Sequence record: NC_104876.1
Length of the DNA: 40,815 bases
Reading direction: 5' to 3' (one strand)
DNA from: a phage
This document shows positions 1 through 40,815 of the stretch, one piece after another (the stretch's first letter is position 1; every line of letters starts with the position of its first letter). The position numbers and the translations under genes were made by a program. The notes beneath the pieces are model-generated. The model saw only the letters and a list, made by a program, of their open reading frames with translations. It was not told the DNA's origin and searched no databases.

Positions 1-261
1 ATCGAACCGGTTATGATCGCCAAGTTCCGCAAAGCGTTCGGCGAGAGTGTTTACAGCTACGCCCATATAGGACACCTGCACCACCAAAAGATTGTAGAAA
101 GCCGTAACATGATTGTTGAGCAACACCGCACTCTCGCGGCTAAAGATGCATATGCCTCCCGCGGTGGGTGGATGTCGGGCCGCAGTGCAAATGTAATTAC
201 TTATAGCGCCGAATATGGTGAGGTCGCACGTTTAACTATTTCACCGGAGATGCTTGGATGA
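1..261 (+). CDS. Metallophosphoesterase (calcineurin-like), C-terminal part; in-frame continuation of the CDS that runs off the window at 40815
   Basis: Frame is open from nt 1 (IEPVMIAKF...). GHxH motif HIGHLH at nt 64-81 completes the DxH/GDxxD/GNHDE/GH motif series found at 39946-40815. Stop at 259-261 overlaps next start (ATGA). Confidence 0.55.
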   Translation: MEPVMIAKFRKAFGESVYSYAHIGHLHHQKIVESRNMIVEQHRTLAAKDAYASRGGWMSGRSANVITYSAEYGEVARLTISPEMLG

Positions 262-743
262 AAGATATTGTGATTTTCGATTTAGACGGGACATTGGCAG
301 ATGGTACTCATCGTTTACACCTGCTGCCGAAAGATAACTACGGCGAAACCTGGGCGTGGAAACCATTTAACATGGCGTGCAAAGACGATGCACCCATTAA
401 AGATAACATCGAACTGTGTAACGCCCTTAATCGTCGCTATGCCGTTATTATCTTAACAGGCCGTAGTGATGACGCGGAAAAAGAAACCAGAATGTGGTTG
501 CAGCGCCACCGCGTCGAATTTTATCAGTTAATCATGCGCAGCAAACACGACAACAGAAAAGACATCGTAATTAAAGAAGAGGTGTTGCGTGCTATTGGGC
601 CGGAGAGAATCTTGTGTGCATTCGACGACTCTCCAGCGGTAATAAAGCATTTCCGCGAACTCGGCATAACCACTCACGCAGTTACTGAATACGACTGTAA
701 CGGGAACTCTACACACTTAAAACCACATGGGAGTGATAAATAA
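258..743 (+). CDS. HAD-superfamily phosphatase (small, cap-less; polynucleotide 3'-phosphatase or 5'-nucleotidase type)
   Basis: HAD motifs I FDLDGTL, II IILTGRS, III conserved K, IV FDDSP. GGAG RBS 9 nt upstream. Start and stop both overlap neighbouring genes. Confidence 0.65.
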   Translation: MKDIVIFDLDGTLADGTHRLHLLPKDNYGETWAWKPFNMACKDDAPIKDNIELCNALNRRYAVIILTGRSDDAEKETRMWLQRHRVEFYQLIMRSKHDNRKDIVIKEEVLRAIGPERILCAFDDSPAVIKHFRELGITTHAVTEYDCNGNSTHLKPHGSDK

Positions 744-1297
744 TGGCTAAGGTAATTATTCTTAATGGTCCTGCGGGCTGCGGGAAAGACACACTTGCTA
801 GGGCGCTGGTAGAAATGGGCTTTGCGAAGGGTGTCGCCAGTTTCAAGAATCCGATGTTCAATATTGCTATGGCTGCGTTAGGCCAGGATGCTTACCGCGA
901 GTTTCTCGACGGCTACGACGACCGGGCGCGGAAAGAAAAGCCAGAGGGTTTCCTTAACGGGTTGTCTCGGCGTCAGTTCATGATTGCCATTTCCGAGCAA
1001 TTCATTAAACCGGTATTCGGTGATGATTATTTCGGTAAGTATCTTGCCGGAAACTTGCCCGACGGCGACGAAGTTTTTGTGGTGTCTGATGGCGGGTTCG
1101 CCAGCGAAGTAGCCCCTATCGTTGCCGCGGGGCATGATGTGAGAATCGTCCGCTTGCACAGAGACGGCCATACGTTTGAAGGGGACAGCCGCGGTTACCT
1201 GTACGATATTGATGGTGTAAAAGATTATGACACCTACATCATACCGGGTTACGTTAAATCGAACGCTATAGGCATTGCTTTAAGATTAGGTTTGTAA
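743..1297 (+). CDS. P-loop nucleotide kinase, dNMP-kinase-like (phage T4 gp1-like)
   Basis: Walker A GPAGCGKDT with the GKDT signature recalled for dNMP kinases; about 184 aa; TAATG overlap with upstream HAD gene; followed by hairpin terminator. Confidence 0.6.
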   Translation: MAKVIILNGPAGCGKDTLARALVEMGFAKGVASFKNPMFNIAMAALGQDAYREFLDGYDDRARKEKPEGFLNGLSRRQFMIAISEQFIKPVFGDDYFGKYLAGNLPDGDEVFVVSDGGFASEVAPIVAAGHDVRIVRLHRDGHTFEGDSRGYLYDIDGVKDYDTYIIPGYVKSNAIGIALRLGL

Positions 1298-1302
1298 GAA
1301 AA

Positions 1303-1320
1303 AGGCCCCAAACGGGGCCT
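1303..1320. terminator. Bidirectional intrinsic terminator (AGGCCCC-AAAC-GGGGCCT) between convergent kinase and tail tube genes
   Basis: 7-bp GC stem, 4-nt loop, T-runs on both strands (TAGTTTTATG on plus; TTTTTCTT on minus). Confidence 0.6.
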
Positions 1321-1325
1321 TAGTT

Positions 1326-27021: not shown

Positions 27022-27213
27022 ATGAAACACGAATATGACCGCAAACCAGCACGTGACATCGTACCGGGTGACATGATTTTCAACGTTAAGACCCGCCACC
27101 CTGTTGCCGTTGATACGGTGTTCGTCGAGTCGAACGGTAAACTGGTTATCGAAGATGTAACAGGAAACGTTACGGCGTTCGGGCGTAAGGAACTGGTTCT
27201 GGTGGCGAAATGA
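27022..27213 (+). CDS. Hypothetical protein
   Basis: 63-aa ORF, ATGA overlap with next gene. Confidence 0.4.
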   Translation: MKHEYDRKPARDIVPGDMIFNVKTRHPVAVDTVFVESNGKLVIEDVTGNVTAFGRKELVLVAK

Positions 27214-28034
27214 ACTATTACAACGAATGGGATAAAGGCGCAGCCGCGTGGCTGCGTGAATTAATAAAACATGGTCACATACCTTTTGGAGTTGTAGATG
27301 AAAGAAGCATTACCGAAGTTAAGCCAGAAGACCTTGACGGGTTCACCCAGTGTCATTTTTTCGCTGGTATCGGCGGCTGGCCTCTCGCGCTCAGACTTGC
27401 GGGAGTTTCGGAGGATACGCCTCTCTGGACGGGAAGCCCGCCTTGCCAACCGTTTAGCACGGCAGGAAAACAACTCGGACAGTTCGACCAGAGACACCTC
27501 GCGCCGGTCTTCCTCGACCTCATCAGCGAGTGCCGCCCTCCAGTCATCTTTGGGGAGCAGGTTGCGGCAGCAATTGCAAAATCGTGGATGTGCGATTTAC
27601 AAGCTCACCTGGAAGGAGAAGACTACGCCGTCGGGTTTGCTGTACTCCCAGCTTGTAGCGTCGGCGCACCGCACAAAAGAGAACGACTCTTCTTTGGCGC
27701 GCACGAACTGGCCTACACCGACAGCGAACGACTTCAGAGGGAGCGGAGAGACAGTGATTCGCACGGACGGGAGAGACAGAACATTCGACAGGCTGGACTA
27801 CTCAACAGAGCAGGGATTGAAAGCGAGTCAACCAACCCGCACCACGGCTTCTGGTCAGATGCTGACTGGCTCGGATGCCGTGATGGAAAGTTCCGGCCGG
27901 TTGAACCCGGCGCATTCCCGCTGGCTAATGGGATACCCGCAAGAGTGGGACGATTGCGCGGTTACGGCAATGCCATCGTCCCGCAAGTAGCCGCCGAATT
28001 TATAAAGGCGTTTATGGGGGCCGTAAATGAGTAA
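27210..28034 (+). CDS. DNA (cytosine-5)-methyltransferase-like protein; reading frame appears interrupted (possible pseudogene or sequence error)
   Basis: Frame of 27210 carries motif [44 protein letters not shown] and [10 protein letters not shown]. Motif IX-like [17 protein letters not shown] lies in the +1 frame (27298..27990). Confidence 0.5.
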
Positions 28035-29613: not shown

Positions 29614-32568
29614 TTATTTATCTTCTAGTGCTGCCAGCCTCTTCTCGAACTCGCGCATCTTCTTACGCTGATAGGCAATCTCTATGAAGAACATCTGGTC
29701 CGCCCTAACCCCCCATCTGCCGCCGGGAGGGGATACTTGTACAGTCTGGCCATCTTCATCAATATCATACGCAGCTTCAATTGGGTCGTAGCACAAGAAA
29801 GCATATTTACAATCGGTAGAATCTTTCTCCATAAGCCCATGGTTGACCAAGATGTCTCGCACATCTTGGGCTATCACACCGAAGTGTATCCTTGCAGTGT
29901 CACCCTTGATTGCTAGGCTTTCAAGCCACTTAAAAGACATTACATGTATATCTTCCCATGCGGTAAGGAGTTGTCCCTCAATTTCCTCTTTATTCGTCTT
30001 AAGTGTACCATCAGACGTATTTATCGTACCGGTGGTCGCGTACACCGTAGTCCACCTATTACCTGCCGAACCTAAAGACACTCGCGAGTCTAAGTAAGGA
30101 AGAAAATTGTTGTATGAGTAGAAGCCTCCTGACGCATGCATAATAGCCCTGTTAGGCGTTGCATGGTTTGCCCCGTACAGTTGCAGCAACGCACCATCGG
30201 AACTGGATGCACCATCACCACCGCTAACTATCAGTCTTTGACCCGATGGGGTTTTAGTGGGGACTGTTTTTGAAATCAGCCCGTAATCACCATCAAACTG
30301 TGCACGCACGGCGGACTGTTGTGTACCATCGTATTCCAGCCCCGTTACATGCAGTGAGTACACGCTTACATCATTATCAAATGTTAAAGGTGCCCCTACA
30401 TGACGTACACCATCTACCCCCATGGCGACAGGTAGTGTACGGTTAGGAGTTGCTCCGTATTTGAAATCACGGGATACATACGGGTGGTCTTCAATCTTTA
30501 TCCGGTAGCTATATAAGTCAGCCGGATGCCCATCATGTTTGTACCATAACCTCGCACTGTTATCCCCTATGCTCCAGGGAGAGAAGAAGTCTTCCCCACC
30601 AAAGATATAGTACAACCAGCCATCTTTAACACAGACCGAGCCGACGCCGACAGCAGAGTTAACGATATGACCCTGGTATATTTGGTCGGTAATATTAAAC
30701 CACTGAACATCATCTAAAGATGAAGGCCAGGACGACACATTAACTTTGCACATAAAGGTCCTCGGATACGAACCTTCATAGCGGCTGTCCTGCTCACCAC
30801 CTTCCCACTCACCAAAGGCACGTTCTGTACCAAAGATGTAGAGATAGTCACCTACTTTAGCGAACGGAAGATTGGAGTGATGTACATTGTTCGGAAATCG
30901 CAAGTAGCTCCAGTTTTGCCCAGAATCGGTGCTCATCGCCAGTGTAGAGCCGGGGGAAGTAGGTAATGTGCCGCGTGTGGTAAGGTATAACACACCACCA
31001 TAACTTTTCACGCACGGCTCAGAAGCGTTATCAGCGTATGCCTGAGCGACAGTGCGACGAACGAATACGCCAGGATTGTCATACACGTTACTAAAATACA
31101 AGACACCGAGACGCCTAGGGGACACATCGCCGTTGTGATAGCCGACAGCGATAGTGTAGTTAACATCATCTATAACCGCAAAACTATGTGTCTCCGTGAC
31201 ACACAAATCAGCGTTAGTGGAGTATGCTACCCCAGGCAATTCGGTAATTTCCCACGGGCTGTCCCAGAATCGCGTTGCGAAGTTCCAGGTAACACCCGCA
31301 TTGTTTATGGTGGAACTCGCCGGGCTTGAGAGCGTAACAGTGAACGTATTTCGGTTAATTATAGACGCAACCGTCATATTACCCGATACGCCAGTTGCCG
31401 ATGTATTAGAGAAGTTAACCGCATCTCCTGCTTTTAGGCCGTGATTTTCTATAACAATGGTAGCAGTAGTGGAACCAGAACTAATAGTTATTCCGCCGGT
31501 TGGGTGTCTAAAATACGGCATTGGGCGTGACCAAAGTTCTGCCTTCTTCATCCGCATATTAGATAAGTAGCGGGTTTCTATAACTGCATATAATCGGTTG
31601 CCGCACGTACCCATGCTCATGCAGTGGTAGTTAACTCTGTCCGCGGAAACACTAGCATTATAGCCAGCATGGATTGGGGTCAACCACTCAGGCATTGACC
31701 AAGTCTGCCCGTCGTCACCAGAGCGAACCCAAGCTACATGTAAGTTTTGAACGCCATGTCGTTCGCCTGCCATAAAGGGAGCGTAAATAACATTGTCGTA
31801 GACGAAAGTTTTATCCTGCGTCCATGCGTTGTAGAACGGGGTATCCGTCACCTTAGTTAGTGAGCTGTTAAAGAAGCCATCAGCTACATAAGTAAGCGGT
31901 TGCCCAGCTACGCGCTCGTAAACGAATGCAGCATTCTTAAATTTACTAATGTCAGGTAATTGGGAAACTTTATAAGTCAAACCCCTGCCGTCTATAATCC
32001 AATTGTTGTGGGAAGCTGCTAATACATTAAAAATAGATTGAGTATCATCAGTTACGCCGTCGCCCACGGCGCCCCATGCGCGCGGGTCGTATTCGTCCTT
32101 CCATCGCGCCACATGTAAATCTGGGTACAGAATTGCACCGTTTACATCAGATATTTGCTGCCGCAGTATGACCGACCCGACAGGCTGCCACGCCCCATCT
32201 GCCACGCCACCGGTGGACTGCGGAGAAGATGACGCCGGGATAGTTTTTGGCAGAGCGCCCAACCAATGGTACCAATCCCCATCGCCACCAGAGGACGACG
32301 GCCACAAAACTGCGGTGTTTCGGTCGTTAGCGGATAGTGTACCGCCTGACGTGAAATCAAAATCTGCCAGTTTAAAACCAGCGTCACGCAACACGGCAGG
32401 TAGTGTCTTCTGGGTCTGCCCTGTAACCTGGTTTGTCGCGTAATCAATATCTGCACCCCCGGCTACTCCGCCGGATTTACCCGTGATAACCTCGGCTTCA
32501 AAAATCTGGTGCTTCTTGGCGGTCTGTAAATCCGCCAGGCTTAAAACGTCACCACATCCGCTTGACAT
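29614..32568 (-). CDS. Tailspike with sialidase-like beta-propeller (putative endosialidase) and C-terminal intramolecular chaperone (peptidase S74-type) domain
   Basis: Asp-box motifs SGDDGQTW and STDSGQNW; C-terminal about 130 aa (from ...TINTSDGTLKTNKEE) match the self-cleaving chaperone pattern with a Ser-Lys dyad; 984 aa. Confidence 0.6.
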   Translation of the reverse strand: MSSGCGDVLSLADLQTAKKHQIFEAEVITGKSGGVAGGADIDYATNQVTGQTQKTLPAVLRDAGFKLADFDFTSGGTLSANDRNTAVLWPSSSGGDGDWYHWLGALPKTIPASSSPQSTGGVADGAWQPVGSVILRQQISDVNGAILYPDLHVARWKDEYDPRAWGAVGDGVTDDTQSIFNVLAASHNNWIIDGRGLTYKVSQLPDISKFKNAAFVYERVAGQPLTYVADGFFNSSLTKVTDTPFYNAWTQDKTFVYDNVIYAPFMAGERHGVQNLHVAWVRSGDDGQTWSMPEWLTPIHAGYNASVSADRVNYHCMSMGTCGNRLYAVIETRYLSNMRMKKAELWSRPMPYFRHPTGGITISSGSTTATIVIENHGLKAGDAVNFSNTSATGVSGNMTVASIINRNTFTVTLSSPASSTINNAGVTWNFATRFWDSPWEITELPGVAYSTNADLCVTETHSFAVIDDVNYTIAVGYHNGDVSPRRLGVLYFSNVYDNPGVFVRRTVAQAYADNASEPCVKSYGGVLYLTTRGTLPTSPGSTLAMSTDSGQNWSYLRFPNNVHHSNLPFAKVGDYLYIFGTERAFGEWEGGEQDSRYEGSYPRTFMCKVNVSSWPSSLDDVQWFNITDQIYQGHIVNSAVGVGSVCVKDGWLYYIFGGEDFFSPWSIGDNSARLWYKHDGHPADLYSYRIKIEDHPYVSRDFKYGATPNRTLPVAMGVDGVRHVGAPLTFDNDVSVYSLHVTGLEYDGTQQSAVRAQFDGDYGLISKTVPTKTPSGQRLIVSGGDGASSSDGALLQLYGANHATPNRAIMHASGGFYSYNNFLPYLDSRVSLGSAGNRWTTVYATTGTINTSDGTLKTNKEEIEGQLLTAWEDIHVMSFKWLESLAIKGDTARIHFGVIAQDVRDILVNHGLMEKDSTDCKYAFLCYDPIEAAYDIDEDGQTVQVSPPGGRWGVRADQMFFIEIAYQRKKMREFEKRLAALEDK

Positions 32569-39688: not shown

Positions 39689-39715
39689 CTTACACCAACA
39701 ATGAAGGGGTTTAAA

Positions 39716-39907
39716 ATGTCCAGTTTACCAGTTTCCTTAATTCTGATTGCACTGCTCGCTTATTTCGCGCCTTTCCTGGTTGCGTACTTCCGTAACCATA
39801 AAGCGAAGTTAGCGATATTCATGGCTAATCTGTTTCTTGGCTGGGCGCTGCTGCCGTGGGTCTTTATTTTAATCTGGGCGTGCAACTCGAATGTTAACGA
39901 GAAGTGA
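39716..39907 (+). CDS. Small membrane protein, Imm-like (superinfection-immunity family)
   Basis: Two hydrophobic helices with AYFAPFLVAYFRNHKAKLAIFMANLFLGWALLPWVFILIWA pattern recalled for T4 Imm-like proteins. Start at 39716 with AAGGGG RBS (track start 39701 lacks RBS). Confidence 0.45.
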   Translation: MSSLPVSLILIALLAYFAPFLVAYFRNHKAKLAIFMANLFLGWALLPWVFILIWACNSNVNEK

Positions 39908-39945: not shown

Positions 39946-40815
39946 ATGGCCAAGAAGAAAATAACCGACGAACAGTTGCAGGAAGAATTGAACGCCGGGA
40001 TGAAGAATATCGATATAGCTCGTAAATACGGCATCTCTGACCGCGTTATCCGTATCCGTAAAGCGAAGCTGGCTAAGAAAGGCGTAGGCCACGGGCGCGA
40101 CGTTAGTCACCTTGTGCCGGACGGCTACAAGATTAAAGGAACGTCGTCGCTGGTGGACGAGTTCGGCAACACTAAGTTGCAATGGGTTAAGACAGACACC
40201 GATGCTGAACGTCAGGTCGAGTTGATGAAAGCCGTAATCGAAGGAATGAAATCAGAGATTACACCAGTCGCCCCTGTTAAAGCAGCACGCGCCAAACGCG
40301 ACGGCAAGCTACTCAATCTTTACACGGTATCTGATTTTCACCTCGGTATGCTGGCATGGGCTGACGAGAGCGGCGACGACTGGGATATGAAAATCGCGGA
40401 AGACCTGTTCTCTCGTTGGTTCGATGCCGCGTTTCAGAAAGCGCCGGATGCAGGAACAGGAGTTATTAATCTGCTCGGCGACCTTGCGCACTTCGATAGC
40501 CTGGACGCCGTTACACCGGCAAGTGGTCATGTTCTCGATGCGGACACGCGCTATCAGAAACTGGTCCGCTACATGATTCGTATGGTCCGCCGTGTCGTTG
40601 ATATGGCCCTTGTTAAGCATAAAAATGTTCGCTTGCTTATTGTGCAAGGTAACCACGACGAAAGCGGAATGATTTGGTTAGCTGAGATGTTTAGTACGCT
40701 GTACGACAATGAGCCGTGTGTGTTCGTCGATACGTCGCCGGATGTTTACAAGATGGTGCAACACGGCAAAACTACGCTGTTCTTTCACCACGGCCATAAA
40801 GCACGCTTCGATGCT
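39946..40815 (+). CDS. Metallophosphoesterase with N-terminal HTH-like region, 5' part; runs off the window end and continues in frame at nt 1
   Basis: GAGGAAG RBS; motifs SDFHLG (DxH), LLGDLAHFD (GDxxD), QGNHDE (GNHD/E), FFHHGH (GH); no stop before 40815. Confidence 0.6.
   Translation, partial: MAKKKITDEQLQEELNAGMKNIDIARKYGISDRVIRIRKAKLAKKGVGHGRDVSHLVPDGYKIKGTSSLVDEFGNTKLQWVKTDTDAERQVELMKAVIEGMKSEITPVAPVKAARAKRDGKLLNLYTVSDFHLGMLAWADESGDDWDMKIAEDLFSRWFDAAFQKAPDAGTGVINLLGDLAHFDSLDAVTPASGHVLDADTRYQKLVRYMIRMVRRVVDMALVKHKNVRLLIVQGNHDESGMIWLAEMFSTLYDNEPCVFVDTSPDVYKMVQHGKTTLFFHHGHKARFDA

What the first reader, a model, noticed from the sequence alone, without database searches (positions are those of the whole stretch)
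258..1297. HAD phosphatase plus P-loop kinase pair: candidate split polynucleotide kinase-phosphatase (end healing) or dNMP kinase/nucleotidase pool switch
T4 Pnk joins a P-loop 5'-kinase to a HAD-type 3'-phosphatase to repair tRNA cut by host anticodon nucleases; bacterial Pnkp uses a metallophosphoesterase for the same role. Here all three enzyme types are encoded as separate coupled genes in the order phosphoesterase, HAD, kinase. The kinase Walker A (GPAGCGKDT) looks more like T4 gp1 dNMP kinase than Pnk, so a competing reading is a nucleotide-pool module. No ligase was seen in the window.
Basis: inference. Interest (0 to 1): 0.6.

Follow-up and report, generated by a model that had tools for sequence, protein, structure and literature searches.

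The report
Phage nuclease, phosphatase, dNMP kinase cassette
The two genes are real and coupled, but the kinase is an ordinary phage deoxynucleotide (dNMP) kinase, not an RNA/DNA end-repair kinase, so the cassette most likely recycles nucleotides from degraded DNA rather than repairing cut tRNA.

Summary
ORFs 258-743 (HAD phosphatase, 161 aa) and 743-1297 (P-loop kinase, 184 aa) are real, overlap by one base, and follow a metallophosphoesterase (MPE) gene that wraps around the ends of this circularly permuted Kagunavirus genome.

The lead interpretation, a split polynucleotide kinase-phosphatase, is not supported.
- **MPE:** it is nuclease-type, closest to PolD DP1, Mre11 and SbcD. It is not the lambda-phosphatase type used by bacterial Pnkp.
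- **Missing partners:** the genome has no ligase and no tRNA gene.

The HAD protein is a genuine stand-alone relative of the T4 Pnk 3'-phosphatase domain with all catalytic residues. Its substrate is unknown.

The MPE-HAD-kinase order recurs in Drexlerviridae and other phages at 40-50% identity. In related cassettes other nucleotide enzymes sit in or beside the HAD position.

Best reading: a nucleotide-salvage module in which a nuclease feeds a dNMP kinase and the phosphatase cleans 3'-phosphates. Only the kinase step is already documented.

The parts
39701..39907 (+). Small membrane protein of the Imm_superinfect family. It is the first sizeable gene of the + strand cassette, which is inserted between tail genes that lie on the - strand.
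   Evidence: Pfam PF14373, E 4.3e-13. Annotated as superinfection immunity protein in MT711525.
39946..40815 (+). Metallophosphoesterase gene, first 290 codons. It encodes an N-terminal helix-turn-helix, a beta-hairpin domain and the start of the MPE domain. The gene continues at window position 1.
   Evidence: A single 376-aa ORF on the circularised window. AF2 model of the 99%-identical homologue P0242, pLDDT 91.5. Weak LuxR/GerE-type HTH matches.
1..261 (+). Metallophosphoesterase gene, last 86 codons plus the stop codon.
258..743 (+). Stand-alone HAD (DxDxT) phosphatase of the Pnkp-phosphatase family, 161 aa. It has no kinase domain.
   Evidence: Pfam HAD_PNKP 72.1 bits. PDB sequence hits are Pnkp1 4xrp (1.7e-6) and the T4 Pnk phosphatase domain 5uj0/1ltq. 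The family HMM scores the T4 Pnk phosphatase domain at 46.6 bits and T5/VPG01 Dmp at 10-15 bits. D8, D10, T12, T67, R69, D102, K106, D123 and D124 align with T4 D165, D167, T169, S211, R213, D254, K258, D277 and D278.
743..1297 (+). Deoxynucleoside monophosphate kinase (DNK), 184 aa, Walker A GPAGCGKDT with catalytic K15.
1302..1321 (.). GC-rich hairpin with T-runs on both strands. It is a likely bidirectional terminator between the kinase gene and the convergent tail tube gene (1326-2498, - strand).
   Evidence: Consensus scan: 8-bp stem with 6 GC pairs, found on both strands. This is pattern evidence only.

Best explanation
This is a three-enzyme nucleotide-salvage cassette. It is carried as one co-directional, translationally coupled unit (Imm, MPE, HAD, DNK) set in opposite orientation inside the tail gene block of a Kagunavirus.

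Proposed mechanism:
1. The MPE is an Mre11/SbcD/DP1-type nuclease carrying an N-terminal DNA-binding helix-turn-helix. It degrades DNA, most plausibly the host chromosome, to 5'-dNMPs. This step is inferred from fold and motifs.
2. The HAD enzyme is a Pnk-type aspartyl-phosphatase. It removes 3'-phosphates from DNA ends, oligonucleotides or 3'-/3',5'-phosphorylated deoxynucleotides that would otherwise block exonucleolysis or be useless to the kinase. The catalytic machinery is shown to be present; the substrate is inferred.
3. The kinase converts the 5'-dNMPs to dNDPs, which host NDP kinase turns into dNTPs for the phage's own DNA polymerase. This step is shown biochemically for the 50%-identical orthologue and inferred here by orthology.

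The cassette is not an RNA or DNA end-healing-and-sealing system.
For: **Kinase**
- Orthology to R1DNK, which as purified protein phosphorylates dAMP, dGMP and dCMP, also dTMP, and barely dIMP. Its K15A mutant is inactive (bioRxiv 10.1101/2024.12.20.629578, read).
- The window protein is 50% identical over 172 aa and K15 is invariant in 61 relatives.
- The DNKs of KarlJaspers and VAC2, 52% and 49% identical, also trigger the dNMP-kinase-dependent Kongming system in that paper.
- The fold is closest to T4 gp1, and hhalign to T4 gp1 spans 172 columns.

**MPE**
- All metal-binding motifs are conserved.
- The nearest folds are the nucleases DP1, Mre11 and SbcD.

**HAD**
- All residues that PMC3592404 names as catalytic in T4 Pnkp (D165, D167, S211, K258, D278) are present.

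**Linkage**
- Rao1 gp56-gp57-gp58 are orthologues of the three proteins at 45%, 50% and 50% identity, in the same order.
- VAC2 has the same triad.
- Of 80 IMG/VR loci with this kinase, 67 have the HAD upstream on the same strand, 39 of them adjacent, and 25 have the full triad.

**Nucleotide context of related cassettes**
- A 74-kb phage has dCMP deaminase, MPE homologue, DUF4406 (nucleoside deoxyribosyltransferase-like) and DNK in that order.
- Dickeya phage BF25/12 has MPE, HNH, HAD and a dATP/dGTP diphosphohydrolase domain.

**Own knowledge**
- In T4, host DNA is reduced to dNMPs with the help of the Mre11/Rad50-type gp46/47 exonuclease, and those dNMPs are rephosphorylated by gp1. The pairing of an Mre11-type nuclease with a dNMP kinase therefore has precedent.
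Against: - No enzyme of this window was assayed.
- The HAD substrate is open. PHROG 415 groups it with T5 Dmp, a 5'-deoxynucleotidase, and motif I plus the following segment resemble Dmp.
- Mre11/DP1-type nucleases normally leave 3'-OH ends, so the need for a 3'-phosphatase in the pathway is not obvious.
- The HAD is truncated in some Rao1-like contigs and absent near the kinase in 13 of 80 loci. It is therefore dispensable, or not strictly tied to the kinase.
- Deleting dnk in Rao1 caused no measurable fitness cost in the laboratory (same preprint), so salvage is not essential.
- Conserved gene order among related siphoviruses may partly reflect shared ancestry and not functional coupling.
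- It is not known whether Kagunavirus phages degrade host DNA.
Confidence: 0.55

Rival explanations
1. Dmp/DNK-type pool switch or signal-clearing pair. In this reading the HAD is a 5'-deoxynucleotidase like T5 Dmp. Together with the kinase it controls how much free dNMP accumulates when DNA is degraded. It would destroy unwanted or modified dNMPs, such as the danger signals m6dAMP or dAMP/dIMP, while the kinase rescues the useful ones.
For: - T5 Dmp is itself a DxDGT HAD enzyme and falls in the same PHROG 415 as the window protein (E 3.6e-57 and 8e-67).
- The two share DLDGT(x6)HR and a local match of E 1e-4.
- The Kongming preprint reports that Dmp homologues co-occur with DNKs and that T5 Dmp blocks Kongming by removing dAMP.
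- Two 2025-26 preprints show that m6dAMP from phage-induced genome degradation triggers the Metis and PUA-Cal-HAD defences, and that a bacterial HAD, MisB, silences the signal by dephosphorylating it.
Against: - The HAD-family profile scores the T4 Pnk phosphatase domain at 46.6 bits but Dmps at only 10-15 bits.
- Pfam HAD_PNKP matches the window protein and Rao1 gp57, but no Pfam family matches T5 Dmp.
- Motif III (DNRKDIVIKEE) is Pnk-like and not Dmp-like.
- Rao1 carries the orthologous HAD next to its DNK, yet it accumulates dAMP, is sensitive to Kongming, and is rescued by T5 Dmp supplied in trans. The resident HAD therefore does not do Dmp's job there.
- A 5'-nucleotidase translationally coupled to a dNMP kinase would run a futile cycle. 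T5 separates the two enzymes in time.
Confidence: 0.2
2. DNA-end processing for phage replication, recombination or repair. In this reading the Mre11-like MPE and a PNKP/Tpp1-like DNA 3'-phosphatase clean damaged or nuclease-cut phage DNA ends. The dNMP kinase is merely a neighbouring early gene.
For: - The MPE fold is closest to DP1, Mre11 and SbcD.
- The HAD belongs to the PNKP phosphatase family.
- MPE and HAD stay together without this kinase in Dickeya phage BF25/12, where they sit beside the exonuclease and endonuclease VII genes.
- Some MPE nucleases leave 3'-PO4 ends: P. putida MPE does so according to the abstract of PMC7826289, listed.
Against: - No Rad50/SbcC-like partner is annotated in the genome.
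- Where the HAD is present it lies upstream of the kinase on the same strand, overlapping or within about 110 nt in 39 loci. In the window the overlap is TAATG.
- In a distant cassette the HAD position is taken by a nucleoside/nucleotide enzyme (DUF4406) and not by a DNA-repair enzyme.
Confidence: 0.15
3. Split polynucleotide kinase-phosphatase. The kinase phosphorylates 5'-OH ends, and the HAD and/or MPE remove 2',3'-cyclic or 3'-phosphates. This would repair tRNA cut by anticodon nucleases, with sealing left to a host ligase.
For: - The HAD is homologous to the end-healing phosphatase of T4 Pnk and of Pnkp1.
- Distant stand-alone HAD_PNKP genes do sit next to Rnl1-like RNA ligases in other phage contigs, so split repair sets probably exist somewhere.
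Against: - The kinase is an orthologue of a characterised dNMP kinase.
- Its only similarity to the Pnk kinase domain is the Walker A loop, and Pnk-type kinases are not among its nearest folds.
- The MPE is not of the Pnkp/lambda-phosphatase type.
- The genome has no ligase and no tRNA gene.
- The HADs that are linked to ligases are only 30-37% identical to this one, whereas the DNK-linked ones are 44% identical or more.
Confidence: 0.05

Closest known systems
Escherichia phage Rao1 gp56-gp57-gp58, where gp58 is R1DNK (Zeng et al., bioRxiv 10.1101/2024.12.20.629578). The equivalent genes of Klebsiella phage vB_KpnS-VAC2 also belong here.
   Same: - Same three genes in the same order.
- Identities are 45% for the MPE, 50% for the HAD and 50% for the kinase.
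- The Walker A lysine is K15 in both.
- R1DNK is a proven dNMP kinase.
   Different: - In Rao1 and VAC2 the triad sits at the end of the replication module, just before the lysis genes.
- Here it is inverted inside the tail gene block and is preceded by an Imm gene.
- Only gp58 has been studied. gp56 and gp57 are uncharacterised, and gp57 is annotated 'polynucleotide kinase' although it has no kinase domain.
T4 gp1 deoxynucleoside monophosphate kinase (PDB 1DEK)
   Same: - Both have a GKDT Walker A.
- The profile alignment is full-length.
   Different: - Only about 20% identical.
- T4 gp1 is 241 aa, with insertions.
- T4 gp1 is specific for dGMP, dTMP and hmdCMP (annotation), whereas the R1DNK-type enzyme accepts dAMP, dGMP, dCMP and dTMP.
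T4 polynucleotide kinase-phosphatase (PseT), C-terminal 3'-phosphatase domain
   Same: - DxDxT acyl-phosphatase with the same nucleophile, general acid, phosphate-binding Ser/Thr and Lys, and Mg-binding Asp residues.
- Same Pfam family, HAD_PNKP.
   Different: - Stand-alone, with no fused 5'-kinase domain.
- The spacing between motifs I and II is about 13 residues longer (59 against 46).
- No RNA ligase partner in the genome, whereas T4 encodes rnlA close to pseT.
T5 Dmp (5'-deoxynucleotidase) together with T5 Dnk
   Same: - A HAD phosphatase and a dNMP kinase encoded in one phage.
- Dmp shares PHROG 415 and motif I with the window HAD.
   Different: - Sequence relation is remote: 10-15 bits to the family profile.
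- The T5 genes are far apart and expressed at different times.
- The T5-type Dnk is a different, distantly related branch (19.5 bits).
Bacterial Pnkp (Clostridium thermocellum Pnkp-Hen1) and Capnocytophaga Pnkp1-Rnl-Hen1 RNA repair systems
   Same: They use the same three enzyme superfamilies: P-loop kinase, MPE or HAD phosphatase. Pnkp1's HAD domain is the best PDB sequence hit of the window HAD.
   Different: - In those systems the kinase is a polynucleotide kinase.
- Their MPE is a lambda-phosphatase-type phosphomonoesterase.
- A ligase and Hen1 are present.
- None of this is true here.

Membership tests
Polynucleotide kinase-phosphatase (T4 Pnkp type end-healing enzyme) | P-loop 5'-OH polynucleotide kinase domain of the Pnk clade | tested here: not met
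   [not shown]
Polynucleotide kinase-phosphatase (T4 Pnkp type end-healing enzyme) | DxDxT HAD 3'-phosphatase module with the catalytic Asp, Asp, Ser/Thr, Lys and Asp-Asp residues | tested here: met
   D8, D10, T67, K106, D123 and D124 align with T4 D165, D167, S211, K258, D277 and D278. The roles of these residues are taken from PMC3592404.
Polynucleotide kinase-phosphatase (T4 Pnkp type end-healing enzyme) | Kinase and phosphatase joined in one polypeptide | tested here: not met
   They are two separate ORFs. All 120 best HAD homologues are 101-237 aa and none has a kinase domain.
Polynucleotide kinase-phosphatase (T4 Pnkp type end-healing enzyme) | A partner ligase that seals the healed ends | tested here: not met
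   No ORF resembles T4 Rnl1 or T4 DNA ligase. None is annotated in the 99.5%-identical genome. T4 Rnl2-type ligases were not searched for explicitly.
Polynucleotide kinase-phosphatase (T4 Pnkp type end-healing enzyme) | Activity on 5'-OH and 3'-phosphate or 2',3'-cyclic phosphate polynucleotide ends | not testable with these tools
   This needs enzyme assays.
Phage dNMP kinase (DNK: R1DNK / T4 gp1 family, PHROG 139) | Full-length homology to a biochemically characterised dNMP kinase | tested here: met
   50% identity to R1DNK, E 2e-60. PHROG 139, E 3.8e-46. The family HMM scores R1DNK at 242 bits.
Phage dNMP kinase (DNK: R1DNK / T4 gp1 family, PHROG 139) | GxxxxGKD(T) Walker A with the catalytic lysine | tested here: met
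   The motif is GPAGCGKDT. G14, K15 and D16 are invariant in 61 relatives. K15A inactivates R1DNK.
Phage dNMP kinase (DNK: R1DNK / T4 gp1 family, PHROG 139) | NMP-kinase fold closest to T4 gp1 | tested here: met
   [not shown]
Phage dNMP kinase (DNK: R1DNK / T4 gp1 family, PHROG 139) | Phosphorylation of free dNMPs by this particular protein | not testable with these tools
   Shown only for the orthologue R1DNK (preprint read).
HAD_PNKP (Pfam PF25109) | Score above the Pfam gathering threshold over the whole domain | tested here: met
   72.1 bits against a cut-off of 27.6, covering profile positions 2-140 of 143.
T5 Dmp-type 5'-deoxynucleotidase | Close sequence relationship to characterised Dmps (T5, Bas26, VPG01) | tested here: inconclusive
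   Same PHROG 415 and shared motif I. However, the family HMM gives only 10-15 bits, against 46.6 for the T4 Pnk phosphatase domain.
T5 Dmp-type 5'-deoxynucleotidase | Depletes dAMP and protects against Kongming | not testable with these tools
   Indirect evidence against this feature: Rao1 carries the orthologue, yet it is Kongming-sensitive and is rescued by T5 Dmp.
Mre11/SbcD/PolD-DP1 type MPE nucleases | Complete binuclear-metal motif set (DxH, GD, GNH, H, GHxH) | tested here: met
   D130, H132, G178, D179, N236, H237, H282, G314 and H317 are invariant in 64 relatives at 30-49% identity.
Mre11/SbcD/PolD-DP1 type MPE nucleases | Catalytic-domain fold nearest to these nucleases and not to phosphomonoesterases | tested here: met
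   [not shown]
Mre11/SbcD/PolD-DP1 type MPE nucleases | Rad50/SbcC ATPase or polymerase partner | tested here: not met
   None is annotated in the near-identical genome. The protein instead carries its own N-terminal HTH.
CthPnkp / lambda-phosphatase type MPE (end-healing 2',3'-phosphatase) | Fold or sequence nearest to the lambda-Pase/PPP clade | tested here: not met
   [not shown]

The most novel reading that the evidence does not exclude
The MPE-HAD-DNK triad may be a coordinated, mobile module for handling the products of DNA degradation, not just three neighbouring housekeeping genes.

In this reading the nuclease liberates nucleotides from host DNA and the kinase rapidly converts the useful 5'-dNMPs. 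The Pnk-type HAD then has one of two uncharacterised roles:
- it heals 3'-phosphate ends or nucleotides made by the nuclease; or
- it destroys the modified or unusable dNMPs, such as m6dAMP, that bacteria are now known to sense as danger signals (Metis, PUA-Cal-HAD, Kongming).

Either role would be a new biochemical job for the very widespread phage 'polynucleotide kinase' genes that have no kinase domain. The second role would be a new counter-defence.
Probability: 0.2. Interest if true: 0.55.

Novelty: new member of a known kind. Interest (0 to 1): 0.3.

Why it matters
**Annotation.** Thousands of phage genomes label this HAD gene 'polynucleotide kinase' or 'kinase-phosphatase', and label its neighbour 'ATPase' or 'hypothetical'. 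The evidence here says the first has no kinase domain and the second is a dNMP kinase. These phages should not be counted as carrying tRNA-repair, anti-anticodon-nuclease capacity.

**Defence biology.** The kinase belongs to the exact family shown to trigger the Kongming defence system. Free dNMPs from host-DNA breakdown are now known to be danger signals. The uncharacterised nuclease and phosphatase that travel with this kinase are therefore reasonable targets for work on how siphoviruses manage nucleotide pools and avoid nucleotide-sensing immunity.

**Limits.** On present evidence the cassette itself is an ordinary, widespread auxiliary module.

Tried and rejected
- **Sequence searches of the kinase against PDB.** Neither the single sequence nor the 61-sequence profile found anything beyond Walker A matches to AAA+ ATPases. 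The classification had to come from the predicted structure and from the literature.
- **Pfam and NCBIfam for the kinase.** Nothing scored above threshold.
- **Profile search of the MPE against PDB sequences.** It found only weak LuxR-type HTH hits. The fold search was needed.
- **T5 A1 as a relative of the MPE.** Only the GNHD motif aligns (hhalign probability 15%). Rejected.
- **Spacing between HAD motifs I and II as a marker.** I tested whether the longer spacing, shared with T5 Dmp, marks nucleotide-acting HADs as opposed to end-healing HADs. It does not. Ligase-linked stand-alone HADs also have 55-65 residues, and only the fused Pnk enzymes have 46.
- **PHROG 415 label.** It is not informative, because the family mixes T5 Dmp with Pnk-like HADs.
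- **PADLOC.** None of the three proteins matches a defence-system model.
- **Scan of bacterial and archaeal genomes for close HAD relatives.** None found. That query finds only close relatives.
- **Homologue search for the MPE.** The best 120 listed were all 97-99% identical sequences. The diverse alignment for the structure prediction came from the representative-library search instead.
- **Structure of the HAD.** Whether the HAD active site is open (macromolecular substrates) or capped (small molecules) was therefore not examined.
Full report
**What is there**

The window is a circularly permuted, essentially complete genome of a K1-type Kagunavirus (Guernseyvirinae). It is 99.5% identical over the region to Escherichia phage vB_EcoS_fKuEco01, a 40,825-bp circular record.

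They overlap by one base (TAATG). The first overlaps the stop of the upstream gene (ATGA).

It is cut by the window ends. On the circularised sequence it is one 376-aa ORF, 39946-40815 joined to 1-261. An Imm_superinfect gene lies before it at 39701-39907.

The whole + strand unit is set against the flanking - strand tail genes: the tail assembly chaperone on one side and the tail tube gene on the other. It ends at a hairpin with T-runs on both strands, 1302-1321.

**The kinase**

Sequence libraries were little help. Nothing scored above threshold in Pfam or NCBIfam, and PDB sequence searches returned only Walker A matches. PHROGs placed it in family 139, dNMP kinase, at E 3.8e-46.

A 61-sequence alignment gave an AlphaFold model with pLDDT 93.3.
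- Profile-profile alignment to T4 gp1 runs the full length, 172 columns. Alignment to the T4 Pnk kinase domain covers 28 columns around the P-loop.

The decisive evidence is in the literature. The Kongming preprint (bioRxiv 10.1101/2024.12.20.629578) purified gp58 of phage Rao1 (R1DNK).
- R1DNK phosphorylates dAMP, dGMP and dCMP, also dTMP, and hardly dIMP. Its K15A mutant is dead.
- The sequence is printed in the paper's supplement. It is 50% identical to the window protein over 172 residues (E 2e-60), with the same K15.
- The DNKs of phages KarlJaspers and VAC2 also trigger Kongming in that paper. They are 52% and 49% identical to the window protein.
- A profile of the window protein's family scores these three proteins at 212-242 bits. 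It scores T5-type DNKs at 15-20 bits and the T4 Pnk kinase domain at 13 bits.

The kinase is therefore a dNMP kinase by orthology.

**The HAD protein**

It is a true member of Pfam HAD_PNKP (72.1 bits against a cut-off of 27.6). Its only significant PDB sequence relatives are the phosphatase domains of Capnocytophaga Pnkp1 and T4 Pnk.

The residues that PMC3592404 identifies as nucleophile (D165), general acid-base (D167), phosphate contacts (S211, K258) and metal ligand (D278) correspond to D8, D10, T67, K106 and D124. R69, R94, D102 and D123 are also shared. R19 sits at the same +11 spacing from the nucleophile as T4 R176.

All 120 best homologues are stand-alone proteins of 101-237 aa without a kinase domain. 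The widespread annotation 'polynucleotide kinase' is therefore a misnomer.

One complication is that PHROG 415, which holds this protein (E 8e-67), also holds T5 Dmp (E 3.6e-57), a characterised 5'-deoxynucleotidase. Dmp shares the DLDGT(x6)HR segment with the window protein.

The window protein's family is nevertheless much closer to the Pnk phosphatase than to Dmp.
- The T4 Pnk phosphatase domain scores 46.6 bits against the family profile, and three Dmps score 10-15 bits.
- Pfam HAD_PNKP does not match T5 Dmp.
- Motif III is Pnk-like.

I tested whether the longer spacing between motifs I and II, which is shared with Dmp, separates nucleotide-acting HADs from end-healing HADs. It does not.

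The T4 Pnk phosphatase itself works on free 3'-dTMP as well as on polynucleotide ends (PMC3592404). Family membership therefore does not decide between those substrates.

**The MPE**

It has every binuclear-metal motif, invariant across 64 relatives at 30-49% identity. The family has 4,613 50%-cluster representatives.

It carries an N-terminal three-helix HTH with weak LuxR-type matches. No Rad50/SbcC partner is annotated.

**Linkage**

- Rao1 gp56-gp57-gp58 are orthologues of the MPE, HAD and kinase at 45%, 50% and 50% identity, in the same order. Klebsiella phage VAC2 has the same triad.
- Of 80 IMG/VR loci holding this kinase, down to 39% identity, 67 have the HAD upstream on the same strand. 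In 39 of these it is adjacent or overlapping. Twenty-five loci have the complete triad.
- Starting from the HAD instead, the HADs that are 44% or more identical to this one mostly have the kinase nearby.
- Distant stand-alone HADs (30-37% identical) mostly do not. Six of them lie within 6 kb of a T4 Rnl1-like RNA ligase, and one is a fused Pnk.
- Related cassettes point to nucleotide metabolism. A 74-kb phage contig has dCMP deaminase, an MPE homologue (hhalign probability 100%), DUF4406 and DNK. Dickeya phage BF25/12 has MPE, HNH, HAD and a dATP/dGTP diphosphohydrolase domain.
- The HAD is not indispensable. It is truncated to 85-88 aa in two Rao1-like contigs.

**Interpretation**

The split-Pnkp reading needs a polynucleotide kinase, an end-healing phosphoesterase and a ligase. 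The kinase is a dNMP kinase. The MPE is a nuclease-type enzyme. There is no ligase and no tRNA gene. Only the HAD fits that reading.

The best-supported picture is a salvage line: a nuclease produces nucleotides, the kinase rephosphorylates 5'-dNMPs, and the HAD removes 3'-phosphates from ends or nucleotides. The last step is the least certain.
- From my own knowledge, T4 offers the precedent. Its Mre11/Rad50-type gp46/47 exonuclease helps reduce host DNA to dNMPs, and gp1 rephosphorylates them.
- The main rival is that the HAD is a Dmp-like 5'-dNMPase. That would make the pair a pool switch or a way to erase dNMP danger signals.
- Recent preprints show such signals are real: dAMP converted to dITP in Kongming, and m6dAMP in Metis and PUA-Cal-HAD.
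- Against this rival, Rao1 carries the orthologous HAD next to its kinase, yet it accumulates dAMP, is Kongming-sensitive, and is rescued by T5 Dmp in trans.
- A translationally coupled nucleotidase and kinase would also run a futile cycle.

**Verdict**

The kinase is a member of an already characterised family. The HAD and the MPE are uncharacterised members of known superfamilies. The conserved triad has not, in the literature I could search, been treated as a unit. Interest is modest: a common auxiliary module, with one open biochemical question about what the kinase-less 'polynucleotide kinase' HAD does.

Noticed in passing
window 39946-40815 joined to 1-261: The window is a circular permutation of a whole phage genome, and its ends cut the metallophosphoesterase gene. 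Read linearly, only an 86-codon C-terminal fragment is seen at the start of the window.
   Followed up: yes
window 39701-39907 (+): A superinfection-immunity (Imm_superinfect) membrane protein gene heads the same + strand unit as the three enzymes. It lies between tail genes on the opposite strand, which suggests a separately transcribed accessory island.
   Followed up: partly
window 27210-28034 and 27298-27990 (+): A 230-aa ORF lies entirely inside the C-5 cytosine methyltransferase gene, on the same strand but in another frame. The reference genome annotates it as a second, 'Mte8-like' methyltransferase. It has no Pfam match, and the outer protein matches only part of the DNA_methylase model (residues 72-169).
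   Followed up: partly
L089 4585-4842; L090 586-852: In two Rao1-like metagenomic contigs the HAD gene between the MPE and the kinase is reduced to an 85-88 aa fragment, while both neighbours are intact. The HAD can therefore decay independently.
   Followed up: no
L088 2787-5594: A 74-kb phage contig has dCMP deaminase, a 397-aa MPE homologue (hhalign probability 100%), DUF4406 (nucleoside deoxyribosyltransferase-like) and the dNMP kinase in that order. A different nucleotide enzyme occupies the HAD's position.
   Followed up: partly
L172 2913-5355 (Dickeya phage BF25/12): In this Autographiviridae phage a 59%-identical HAD sits with an MPE, an HNH gene and a dATP/dGTP diphosphohydrolase domain protein (PF18909, E 9.5e-35). 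This kinase family is not present there.
   Followed up: partly
L128, L131, L140, L141, L143, L149: Distant stand-alone HAD_PNKP genes (30-37% identical) lie within 6 kb of T4 Rnl1-like RNA ligase genes in environmental phage contigs, immediately adjacent in L128. I did not look for a separate kinase in them.
   Followed up: no
PHROG 415 (matched by window 258-743 and by T5 dmp, L083 124-858): The family is labelled 'polynucleotide kinase', but it contains kinase-less HAD proteins and the characterised T5 5'-deoxynucleotidase. Annotations derived from this label are unreliable.
   Followed up: yes
window 39946-1297 (the three genes compared): Within Kagunavirus the MPE is the most conserved of the three. 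Its best 120 90%-identity clusters are all at least 97% identical, whereas the kinase drops to 88-92% within its first 40 clusters and the HAD to about 85% within its first 10.
   Followed up: no
window 29614-32568 (-): The 984-aa ORF corresponds to the tailspike endosialidase of the reference phage, which marks this as a K1-capsule-specific coliphage.
   Followed up: no
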